From: Escherichia coli
GTDB lineage: Bacteria; Pseudomonadota; Gammaproteobacteria; Enterobacterales; Enterobacteriaceae
DNA length: 64,000 nt
Assembly (NCBI RefSeq): GCF_050920415.1
Contig: NZ_CP169309.1
Direction: 5' to 3' (one strand)
The translations under genes were made by a program, and so were the position numbers. Shown in pieces: positions 18,137 to 18,477 of this stretch. A model generated the notes under the pieces. The model saw only the letters and a program-made list of their open reading frames with translations, did not search any database and was not told the DNA's origin. The first letter of the stretch is position 1. Every line of letters starts with the position of its first letter.

Positions 18137-18213
18137 GTTACCTAGGAGTTTTTCATCTGCATTATTGTTATATTTTAAAAAGGCAATTTAACATCATAAA
18201 ATAAAATGATAAA

Positions 18214-18253
18214 GTACGGTTAATCACGAATAAAAATTCTTAATTAACCGTAC
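18214..18253. other. Perfect 11-bp inverted repeat (GTACGGTTAAT / ATTAACCGTAC) with 18-nt AT-rich loop in the convergent hcp-yafT spacer; possible bidirectional terminator or protein-binding palindrome
   Basis: Read directly from sequence; T-rich tracts flank it on both strands. Confidence 0.5.
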
Positions 18254-18477
18254 CTGCTGTTTTATAGATGTGTATGATGTATTTTTGACAGTTCAACCGA
18301 AAACTCGAACTACAGCTTATATGTTGAGAGAACAATAAATAACTTTAGTAAAGTTTTTTACTACTCCTAAAAAAATATATATGTAAAATTAATTAGCAGA
18401 CTTGAACCAGAGTATAAATAGAAAAGAAAATGCTCTTTCTTGCTAAGTACCATTAAAACGTCTGGTATAAAACCTTA

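What the first reader, a model, noticed from the sequence alone, without database searches (positions are those of the whole stretch)
18137..18477. AT-rich convergent spacer with a perfect 11-bp palindrome
The spacer between the hcp stop and the yafT stop is very AT-rich and contains GTACGGTTAAT(N18)ATTAACCGTAC at 18214-18253. The stem is perfect but the loop is long for a simple terminator, so it might be a dimeric regulator binding site, or a bidirectional terminator that insulates the T6SS operon from yafT. AT-rich DNA at island edges is also a typical target for H-NS-type silencers (mechanism not testable from sequence).
Basis: seen in the sequence. Interest (0 to 1): 0.3.

Follow-up and report, generated by a model that had tools for sequence, protein, structure and literature searches.

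The report
Terminator-like hairpin between hcp and yafT
The palindrome is real. It is the base of a conserved 40-base stem-loop with a 4-base loop that most likely stops transcription between two genes facing each other inside an E. coli type VI secretion island, which is an ordinary kind of feature.

Summary
GTACGGTTAAT (18214-18224) and ATTAACCGTAC (18243-18253) lie in a 341-bp spacer of 27% GC, between the hcp stop (18136) and the yafT stop (18478).

The "18-nt loop" is a misreading. The arms extend to 18 nt each, with 16 of 18 complementary, around a 4-nt loop.

- **yafT (-) strand RNA:** 17 pairs, a UUUU loop, -18.6 kcal/mol, followed directly by UUUAUCAUUUUAUUUU. This has the shape of an intrinsic terminator.
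- **hcp (+) strand RNA:** weaker at -14.4 kcal/mol, and the U run starts 6 nt after the stem. This is not canonical.

The spacer is single-copy and unannotated. It occurs in 579 of 5426 complete E. coli genomes (phylogroup B2, O145 and relatives) and in E. whittamii. The E. whittamii spacer differs at 60 of 341 positions. Only one of these is in the hairpin, and it turns a wobble or mismatch into a C-G pair.

I found no second copy, no excess of half-sites in the island, no Rfam match and no mobile-element homology.

Other lineages and genera carry a different, GC-rich hairpin just after yafT, so this convergent junction regularly holds a hairpin. Also, yafT travels with the T6SS island, so the spacer is not the island edge.

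Verdict: a probable terminator hairpin, mainly for the yafT strand. It scores as borderline on a classical discriminant. Interest is low.

The parts
17657..18136 (+). hcp, the last gene of the long + strand T6SS operon (tssM 12742-16269 and the VasL-domain gene 16278-17639 lie upstream)
   Evidence: ORF list. Pfam T6SS_HCP at E=1.9e-24, and VasL/ImpA_N for the upstream gene. RefSeq annotation of the homologous UTI89 locus.
18137..18477 (.). Non-coding convergent spacer, 341 bp, 27% GC
   Evidence: No ORF is conserved in frame across lineages. It is unannotated in all 579 genomes that carry it.
18214..18253 (-). 40-nt stem-loop. Arms at 18214-18231 and 18236-18253, loop at 18232-18235. On the - strand RNA it forms 17 pairs (one G.U, one A.G mismatch) with a UUUU loop. 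On the + strand RNA it forms 11 bp, a 3x3 internal loop, 4 bp and an AAAA loop.
   Evidence: dG is -18.6 kcal/mol on the - strand and -14.4 on the + strand. The 40 nt are identical in every E. coli copy I read except strain MS20645 and the low-coverage contig L031. Only 1 of 40 positions differs in E. whittamii.
18196..18213 (-). U-rich tract directly 3' of the stem on the - strand (UUUAUCAUUUUAUUUUAU). It reads as an A-tract on the + strand.
   Evidence: tail score 3.41. It varies slightly between lineages: UUUGUC in B2 and UUCAUC in O145.
18260..18263 (+). Short U run on the + strand, separated from the stem by CCUGCU (6 nt)
   Evidence: The tail score at the stem is 1.08. It reaches 3.58 only if counted from 6 nt downstream.
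18254..18308 (-). Conserved non-coding block directly upstream of the hairpin on the yafT strand. Function unexplained.
   Evidence: 4 of 55 positions differ from E. whittamii, against 53 of 228 in the variable parts of the spacer (Fisher p=0.008). No significant fold.
18448..18467 (-). Weak 5-bp hairpin (UACCA/UGGUA) just after the yafT stop, at the position where other lineages have a strong GC-rich hairpin
   Evidence: the region's fold is not better than shuffles, z = -0.66. Compare.
18478..19263 (-). yafT lipoprotein gene, convergent with hcp
   Evidence: ORF with a lipobox. 82% identical to the annotated lipoprotein YafT WP_001086141.1. Homologues carry a precomputed Pfam hit to PF25851 YafT.
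19596..19669 (-). tRNA-Asp (aspV), the tRNA that flanks the island
   Evidence: Rfam tRNA at 67.7 bits. Annotated as tRNA-Asp in homologous loci.

Best explanation
The palindrome is the base of a 40-nt RNA stem-loop that marks the 3' ends of two convergent transcription units inside the aspV type VI secretion island.

Its best-supported activity is factor-independent termination of transcripts coming from yafT on the - strand. There the RNA forms a 17-pair stem with a UUUU tetraloop, and the stem is followed at once by UUUAUCAUUUUAUUUU. RNA polymerase would pause on the U-rich tract, the hairpin would form, and the transcript would be released about 265-285 nt after the yafT stop. This would keep yafT transcription from running antisense into hcp and the T6SS operon.

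Polymerases arriving from the T6SS operon on the + strand meet the same hairpin in a weaker form and without an adjacent U tract. There it can at most act as a pause or collision point, or as a 3' stabiliser.

Shown here: the structure, its strand asymmetry, its flanks, its single-copy status and its conservation. Inferred: that termination actually occurs, and on which strand.
For: 1. **Geometry.** The arms extend to 18 nt around a 4-nt loop. The stem-loop is 40 nt long. This lies within the TransTermHP criteria quoted in PMC12207403 (stem at least 4, loop 3-13, total at most 59 nt), and that paper reports a median loop length of 4 in measured terminators.
2. **Strand asymmetry.** dG is -18.6 kcal/mol on the - strand and -14.4 on the + strand. 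The tail score is 3.41 against 1.08. The 76-nt fold gives z = -7.65 against -4.45.
3. **Conservation.** The E. whittamii spacer differs at 60 of 341 positions, but at only 1 of 40 in the hairpin (Fisher p=0.004). That single change (18242 A to G) converts U.G to C-G on the - strand, and C.A to C-G on the + strand. The B2 type (UTI89) differs from the window at 31 alignment columns in the spacer, none of them in the hairpin. Over 18201-18271, 578 of 579 genomes are at least 98.6% identical. A control 76-mer is about 92% identical and is detectable by megablast in only 233 genomes.
4. **Context.** It is the only stable hairpin between two convergent stops. Folds of the rest of the spacer are no better than shuffles. 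The only two other perfect inverted repeats of at least 11 bp in the window score as strong terminators on both strands, and one of them sits in a 46-bp convergent gap.
5. **Analogy.** K-12-like E. coli, O157, Kluyvera and Salmonella salamae each have a different, stable hairpin in the same junction just after yafT.
Against: - On my implementation of the d'Aubenton-Carafa discriminant, the hairpin falls just below the terminator threshold on the - strand (d = -10) and far below on the + strand (d = -62). Sixteen other sites in the window score above 0.
- The stem is long and AU-rich, with 5 G-C pairs out of 17.
- The U tract is interrupted (UUUAUC), and in O145 strains it begins UUC.
- The tool's own terminator scan reported nothing in 17900-18700. 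Its rule may not accept a stem with an internal mismatch.
- The hairpin lies 225 nt after the yafT stop, which implies an unusually long 3' UTR.
- Conservation rests on only three lineages and a single informative substitution.
- No transcript 3'-end data exist for this locus in anything I could search.
Confidence: 0.55

Rival explanations
1. A bidirectional, collision-type terminator, or a 3' end and stabiliser for the T6SS operon. The hairpin would serve mainly the + strand, or both strands equally. It would pause converging polymerases so that head-on and trailing collisions end both transcripts, or it would protect the hcp 3' end from exonucleases.
For: The hairpin lies only 78 nt after the hcp stop, at the end of an operon of about 20 kb. 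It is stable on both strands, and in E. whittamii it is equally stable on both (-20.4 and -20.8 kcal/mol). It has an A-tract on one side and a U run on the other. The literature describes convergent-gene terminators that need a hairpin but do not resemble intrinsic terminators (10.1101/2022.10.23.513370).
Against: The + strand U run is 6 nt from the stem, so the tail score is 1.08 and d = -62. In E. coli, two of the 18 positions are mismatched on the + strand. The relative expression of the two units is unknown.
Confidence: 0.22
2. The terminator of a small regulatory RNA, or of a 3'UTR-derived RNA, on the yafT strand. The conserved block 18254-18308 would be the functional body and the hairpin its terminator.
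For: The spacer is mosaic. The core at 18201-18308 has 5 differences in 108 nt from E. whittamii, against 55 in 233 elsewhere (p = 6e-6, though the boundaries were chosen after seeing the data). A highly variable stretch at 18309-18436 lies between it and yafT. A distal 3' UTR that is more conserved than the proximal part is the pattern seen in 3'UTR-derived sRNAs (this comparison rests on my own knowledge).
Against: No - strand promoter-like site reaches the tool's threshold in the spacer, and none was convincing by eye. The block does not fold better than shuffles. The U tail is interrupted. There is no Rfam match. A duplex search against 34 translation-initiation regions of the island and its flanks gave nothing better than shuffled queries, with 63% of shuffles doing as well.
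Confidence: 0.1
3. An operator for a dimeric DNA-binding protein.
For: The perfect 11-bp half-sites are conserved. A weak + strand promoter-like site (TTAACA-16-TAAAGT, with TG) overlaps the left arm.
Against: No second copy exists in the 64-kb window, the 43-kb UTI89 island or any carrier genome. Half-site near-matches are at chance level. The half-site centres are 29 bp apart, and the DNA between them is itself palindromic and conserved, which an operator with a passive spacer does not require. The key -10 positions of the overlapping promoter-like site vary between lineages. The site lies between two stop codons, not upstream of a gene.
Confidence: 0.05
4. A functionless palindrome. It would be a chance product, or a relic of a local duplication-inversion, in neutral AT-rich DNA left after loss of the effector and immunity cargo that other lineages carry between hcp and yafT.
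For: Other lineages have genes at this position. The spacer has no detectable homology to anything else. The classical terminator score is below threshold.
Against: A perfect repeat of at least 11 bp occurs in only 1% of spacer shuffles. The hairpin is significantly more conserved than the surrounding spacer between species, and its one change improves pairing.
Confidence: 0.08

Closest known systems
Rho-independent (intrinsic) transcription terminators of Enterobacteria
   Same: A stem-loop with a 4-nt loop. The base of the stem is relatively G+C-rich (4 of the 6 closing pairs are G-C). A U-rich tract follows directly on the - strand. It lies downstream of a stop codon in an intergenic region.
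   Different: The stem is much longer and more AU-rich than typical, with 36 stem nucleotides against medians of 20-28 nt in most species analysed in PMC12207403. The U tract is interrupted. It lies 225 nt from the stop. It scores just below the threshold of a classical discriminant.
Bidirectional terminators between convergent genes (Ju et al. 2019, as described in bioRxiv 10.1101/2022.10.23.513370)
   Same: It lies between convergent genes, encodes a hairpin on both strands, and has an A-tract and a U-tract on opposite sides.
   Different: The flanks are asymmetric, with the + strand U run displaced by 6 nt. The 341-bp spacer is much longer than that of the canonical example in this window (46 bp at 24004-24049). 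No 3'-end data exist.
The GC-rich hairpin immediately after yafT in K-12-like E. coli, O157, Kluyvera and Salmonella salamae
   Same: It occupies the same junction, between the last T6SS or cargo gene and yafT, and is stable on both strands.
   Different: The sequences are unrelated (TGCCGCCA...TGGCGGCA type). That hairpin lies 10-35 nt after the yafT stop and has no adjacent U tract. The window lineage has only a weak 5-bp remnant-like hairpin at that position (18448-18467).

Membership tests
Intrinsic (Rho-independent) terminator, - strand (yafT) | A stable stem-loop with a short loop, using the criteria quoted for TransTermHP: stem at least 4, loop 3-13, total at most 59 nt | tested here: met
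   17 pairs, 4-nt loop, 40 nt, dG -18.6 kcal/mol. Criteria from PMC12207403.
Intrinsic (Rho-independent) terminator, - strand (yafT) | A U-rich tract immediately 3' of the stem | tested here: met
   UUUAUCAUUUUAUUU, with 4 U in the first 6 bases and a tail score of 3.41. It is interrupted and slightly variable between lineages.
Intrinsic (Rho-independent) terminator, - strand (yafT) | A positive score on a combined hairpin and tail discriminant (d'Aubenton-Carafa type; formula recalled from memory and implemented by me) | tested here: not met
   d = -10.1 (-6.3 in E. whittamii). Sixteen sites in the window score above 0. This is borderline and is driven by the low dG per nucleotide of the long AU-rich stem.
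Intrinsic (Rho-independent) terminator, - strand (yafT) | Transcript 3' ends mapped in the U tract | not testable with these tools
   This needs Term-seq, SEnd-seq or 3' RACE in a carrier strain.
Intrinsic (Rho-independent) terminator, + strand (hcp) | A U-rich tract immediately 3' of the stem | tested here: not met
   The tail is CUGCUGUUUUAUAGA, with a tail score of 1.08 and d = -62.5.
Bidirectional terminator of a convergent gene pair | Located between convergent genes, with a hairpin on both strands | tested here: met
Bidirectional terminator of a convergent gene pair | Overlapping 3' ends of both transcripts at the element | not testable with these tools
   This needs SEnd-seq or Term-seq.
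Transcription-factor operator (palindromic, dimeric) | The motif recurs at other regulated sites, or sits in a promoter | tested here: not met
   It occurs only once in the 64-kb window, the 43-kb island and each carrier genome. Half-sites are at chance level. It lies between two stop codons.
Repeated extragenic palindromes (REP/BIME, ERIC, MITE) | Many copies per genome | tested here: not met
   One place per genome in all 579 carriers. There are no plasmid or phage copies.
Described RNA families (Rfam 15) | A match to a covariance model | tested here: not met
   Only the tRNA and one sub-threshold chance hit outside the spacer, at E up to 5, in 17000-20500.
H-NS-silenced AT-rich DNA | AT-rich relative to the genome | tested here: met
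   27% GC against 52%.
H-NS-silenced AT-rich DNA | H-NS occupancy | not testable with these tools
   This needs ChIP-seq in a carrier strain.

The most novel reading that the evidence does not exclude
The hairpin is the terminator of a lineage-specific regulatory RNA on the yafT strand, either processed from a yafT 3' UTR of about 280 nt or made independently. The conserved 55-nt block at 18254-18308 would be its functional part. This RNA would be confined to the B2/O145-type T6SS island and E. whittamii.
Probability: 0.1. Interest if true: 0.4.

Novelty: new member of a known kind. Interest (0 to 1): 0.12.

Why it matters
If the reading is right, this element sets the 3' boundary between yafT and the 20-kb T6SS operon in uropathogenic and other B2 E. 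coli. It would limit mutual antisense transcription between them. That is useful for annotating the island and for designing deletions or reporters there, but it is an ordinary function.

Two by-products are of slightly wider use. First, yafT belongs to the T6SS island rather than to the core genome. Second, the hcp-yafT junction is a swap site for cargo genes, and each variant keeps its own hairpin.

Tried and rejected
- **Rfam.** Scanned 17000-20500 at E up to 5. Nothing in the spacer.
- **Repeat element.** The spacer and the hairpin are single-copy in every carrier genome. They are absent from phages, and the only plasmid-collection hit is a mis-filed chromosome. This rules out REP, MITE or a mobile-element end.
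- **Relic of cargo genes.** blastn with word size 7 against the hcp-to-yafT regions of K-12-like and O157 loci gave only chance hits.
- **Small ORFs in the spacer.** The 28-aa and 31-aa - strand ORFs and the 22-aa + strand ORF are broken by indels, stop codons or loss of the start codon in UTI89 or E. whittamii.
- **Promoters.** There is no - strand site in the spacer at the tool's threshold. The + strand sites are weak and their -10 positions vary between lineages.
- **Regulon search.** No second palindrome and no excess of half-sites.
- **Resemblance to an ARG box or an RcsAB box.** By eye and from memory, the apical GAAT-AAAA-ATTC resembles an ARG-box core, and TAAGAAT...ATTC resembles an RcsAB box. 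There is only a single ARG-like box with no partner 21 bp away, and the RcsB-type spacing is 4 bp too long. This was not formally tested and I gave it no weight.
- **Covariation.** Only one informative substitution exists (E. whittamii). One strain (MS20645) has an uncompensated ATC to TAA change in the left arm. A 1.4x-coverage metagenome contig has a 1-nt insertion. These are too few for statistics.
- **sRNA target search by duplex energy.** No better than shuffled queries.
- **Literature.** The first search on 'yafT' returned only unrelated words. No paper I found addresses this spacer.
- **Metagenome scan.** It returned 23 contigs with the E. coli-type hairpin and flanks, plus 3 unrelated palindromes that share the arms by chance (L025, L027, L030).

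Full report
**Where we are.** The window is E. coli. Positions 1-18136 carry the distal part of a long + strand type VI secretion operon. It ends with tssM (12742-16269), a VasL-domain gene (16278-17639) and hcp (17657-18136). A 341-bp gap follows. Then come yafT on the - strand (18478-19263), tRNA-Asp (19596-19669, - strand), dnaQ and rnhA. The RefSeq annotation of the homologous UTI89 and O145 loci agrees. This is the aspV island described as PAI I in B2 strains (PMC2941450).

**The observation.** It is correct as written. GTACGGTTAAT at 18214-18224 and its reverse complement at 18243-18253 are separated by 18 bases. The spacer runs exactly from stop to stop and is 27% GC, in a window of 52% GC. 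Chance is an unlikely explanation.
- The full pattern occurs in 0 of 100 shuffles of the window.
- A perfect repeat of at least 11 bp with a loop of 3-30 occurs in 1% of 2000 dinucleotide shuffles of the spacer.
- Only two other loci in the 64 kb have such a repeat, and both score as strong terminators on both strands.

The 18 intervening bases are not a loop. The complementarity continues, giving arms at 18214-18231 and 18236-18253 with 16 of 18 matching, around a 4-nt loop at 18232-18235.

Folded as RNA, the two strands differ.
- On the - strand, which is the yafT sense strand, one imperfect position becomes a G.U pair. The stem then has 17 pairs, a single A.G mismatch and a UUUU loop, with dG -18.6 kcal/mol. 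It is followed directly by UUUAUCAUUUUAUUUU.
- On the + strand both imperfect positions are mismatches. The structure is 11 bp, a 3x3 internal loop and 4 bp, with dG -14.4 kcal/mol. The first tail bases are CUGCUG, and only then comes UUUU.

The 76-nt folds beat all 200 shuffles on both strands, with z = -7.65 on the - strand and -4.45 on the + strand.

**How terminator-like is it?** The geometry lies within the TransTermHP criteria quoted in PMC12207403, and the 4-nt loop equals the median that paper reports for mapped terminators.

I emulated TransTermHP-style scores using parameter values recalled from memory. The hairpin scores -14.6 on the - strand and -12.4 on the + strand. The - strand tail has 4 U in its first six bases. 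The + strand tail has 2.

I also implemented a classical discriminant of the d'Aubenton-Carafa type and ran it over the whole window. Sixteen sites scored above zero, including the tRNA-Asp terminator and three elements that score on both strands. This hairpin was not among them, with d = -10 on the - strand and -62 on the + strand. The shortfall on the - strand comes from the low free energy per nucleotide of a long AU-rich stem and from the interrupted U tract. The tool's simple terminator scan also reported nothing here. The fair description is a plausible but non-canonical terminator on the yafT strand, and not an intrinsic terminator on the hcp strand.

**Distribution and conservation.** The spacer is present once per genome in 579 of 5426 complete E. 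coli genomes, always on the chromosome and always unannotated. There are 58 genomes of the window's type (97-100% identical, including O145:H28) and 521 of the B2 type (about 93% identical, for example UTI89, LF82 and F11). In all other E. coli, similarity to the window stops exactly at the yafT stop codon.

The 40 nt are identical in every E. coli copy I read: UTI89, two O145-type strains, 22 of the 23 E. coli-type metagenome contigs and one MAG. There are two exceptions. Strain MS20645 has an uncompensated ATC to TAA change in the left arm. A metagenome contig with 1.4x coverage (L031) has a 1-nt insertion. Across the population, 578 of 579 genomes are at least 98.6% identical over 18201-18271. 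A control 76-mer from the same spacer is about 92% identical where megablast detects it at all, which is in 233 genomes.

The only more distant homologue found is Escherichia whittamii, which has the same hcp-spacer-yafT arrangement. Its spacer differs from the window at 60 of 341 positions, but at only one of the 40 hairpin positions (Fisher p=0.004). That change (18242 A to G) turns the wobble or mismatch into a C-G pair, which lengthens the perfect stem to 13 bp. It does not show which strand matters, because the E. whittamii stem is equally stable on both strands.

**Alternatives tested.**
- *A repeated element or mobile-element end is excluded.* The element is single-copy, there are no phage or plasmid matches, and there is no Rfam family.
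- *A regulator site gains no support.* The 64-kb window and the complete 43-kb UTI89 island, including the divergent tssB/hcp promoter region, contain no second palindrome. Near-matches to the half-site are at chance level. The element also lies between two stop codons.
- *Coding potential is excluded.* Frame-breaking differences between lineages rule it out.
- *H-NS binding to this AT-rich DNA is plausible in general.* It cannot be assessed here.

**Context from other lineages.** In K-12-like E. coli and in O157, effector- or immunity-like genes (ykfM, a DUF1311 gene and others) lie between hcp and yafT. In Salmonella salamae a 301-aa gene does. In Kluyvera sichuanensis hcp and yafT are 142 bp apart. 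All four carry a stable GC-rich hairpin of the TGCCGCCA...TGGCGGCA type 10-35 nt after the yafT stop, with compensated differences between them and no adjacent U tract. Three points follow.
- This convergent junction habitually carries a hairpin.
- The window/B2/E. whittamii lineage has replaced the usual hairpin. Only a weak 5-bp hairpin remains at the equivalent position (18448-18467), and the AT-rich hairpin sits 225 nt further on.
- yafT accompanies the T6SS cluster even where the flanking tRNA is tRNA-Asn (Kluyvera). yafT is therefore part of the island, and the spacer is not the island's edge.

Published work describes bidirectional terminators between convergent E. coli genes that need a hairpin but do not look like intrinsic terminators, and that work through polymerase collisions (bioRxiv 10.1101/2022.10.23.513370). 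That keeps a bidirectional role open for the weak strand.

**An unexplained detail.** Conservation in the spacer is mosaic. Against E. whittamii, the differences are distributed as follows:

| Segment | Differences | Length (nt) |
|---|---|---|
| 18437-18477, next to yafT | 2 | 41 |
| 18309-18436 | 38 | 128 |
| 18254-18308, directly upstream of the hairpin on the yafT strand | 4 | 55 |
| Hairpin (18214-18253) | 1 | 40 |
| hcp-proximal (18137-18200) | 15 | 64 |

The 55-nt block has no conserved ORF, no convincing promoter and no significant fold. It also shows no outstanding complementarity to translation-initiation regions of the island. It could be the body of a 3'UTR-derived or independent small RNA that ends at this terminator. 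I rate that at about 10%.

**Verdict.** This is a real, conserved, single-copy stem-loop. It is best explained as the transcription end-point hairpin of a convergent gene pair, and it is more convincing for yafT than for the T6SS operon. It is an unannotated but ordinary feature: a new member of a known kind, of low interest.

Noticed in passing
window 18478-19263; L041 3123-3884 and 4311-4386; L039 4224-5033: yafT sits convergent to the last hcp of the T6SS cluster in Escherichia, in Salmonella salamae and in Kluyvera sichuanensis. In Kluyvera the flanking tRNA is tRNA-Asn, not tRNA-Asp. yafT therefore appears to be a conserved T6SS-island gene rather than a core neighbour.
   Followed up: partly
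L003 1465-2867; L004 1047-2395; L039 3011-3916, against window 18137-18477: The slot between hcp and yafT is variable. K-12-like strains carry a frameshifted gene plus ykfM. O157 carries three small genes, including a DUF1311 gene. Salmonella salamae carries a 301-aa gene. The window/B2 lineage has no gene there at all. This looks like a swap site for Hcp-linked cargo.
   Followed up: partly
L003 2969-2992; L004 2831-2860; L041 about 3079-3104; L039 about 4171-4192: A GC-rich hairpin lies 10-35 nt after the yafT stop (TGCCGCCAG/CTGGCGGCA, TGCTGCCACC/GGCGGCAGCA, CTGCCGCCA/TGGCGGCAG, GCCACCGA/TCGGTGGC). The differences between lineages are compensated, and there is no adjacent U tract on either strand.
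   Followed up: partly
window 18254-18308: A 55-nt non-coding block next to the hairpin is conserved almost as well as the flanking genes (4 differences from E. whittamii). The middle of the spacer (18309-18436) has 38 differences in 128 nt. The reason is unknown.
   Followed up: partly
L002 2351-3000 (O145 strain RM8995-C1): In O145 strains the T6SS cluster is deleted. Only a C-terminal fragment of the VasL-domain gene and an intact hcp remain, directly beside yafV. The spacer and hairpin are retained at 99% identity.
   Followed up: no
window 24017-24045, 39767-39793, 63158-63202: Three terminator-like hairpins score on both strands and have A/U-rich flanks. The first sits in a 46-bp gap between convergent ORFs (22645-24003 on the + strand and 24050-24820 on the - strand).
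   Followed up: partly
window 18144-18148: A Shine-Dalgarno-like AGGAG lies 8 nt after the hcp stop, with no start codon following (GGGAG in B2). It may be a relic of a lost, translationally coupled downstream gene.
   Followed up: no
L038 3005-3691 (draft B2 assembly GCA_000397385.1): The left arm and apex of the hairpin, and a nearby 20-nt stretch, are partially duplicated in tandem, and yafT and hcp have odd lengths. This is probably assembly or sequencing error, but a real local duplication is possible.
   Followed up: no
window 18240-18247: The right arm contains the self-complementary octamer TTAATTAA, so alternative local pairings are possible within the arm.
   Followed up: no
L036 (Ursidibacter maritimus contig, 251 bp) and L033/L035 (a 'Citrobacter sp.' MAG): A 251-bp contig filed under a Pasteurellaceae species encodes a YafT fragment 98% identical to the E. 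coli one. One MAG carries both the B2-type and the K-12-type yafT loci. Both look like contamination or chimeric binning in public assemblies.
   Followed up: no
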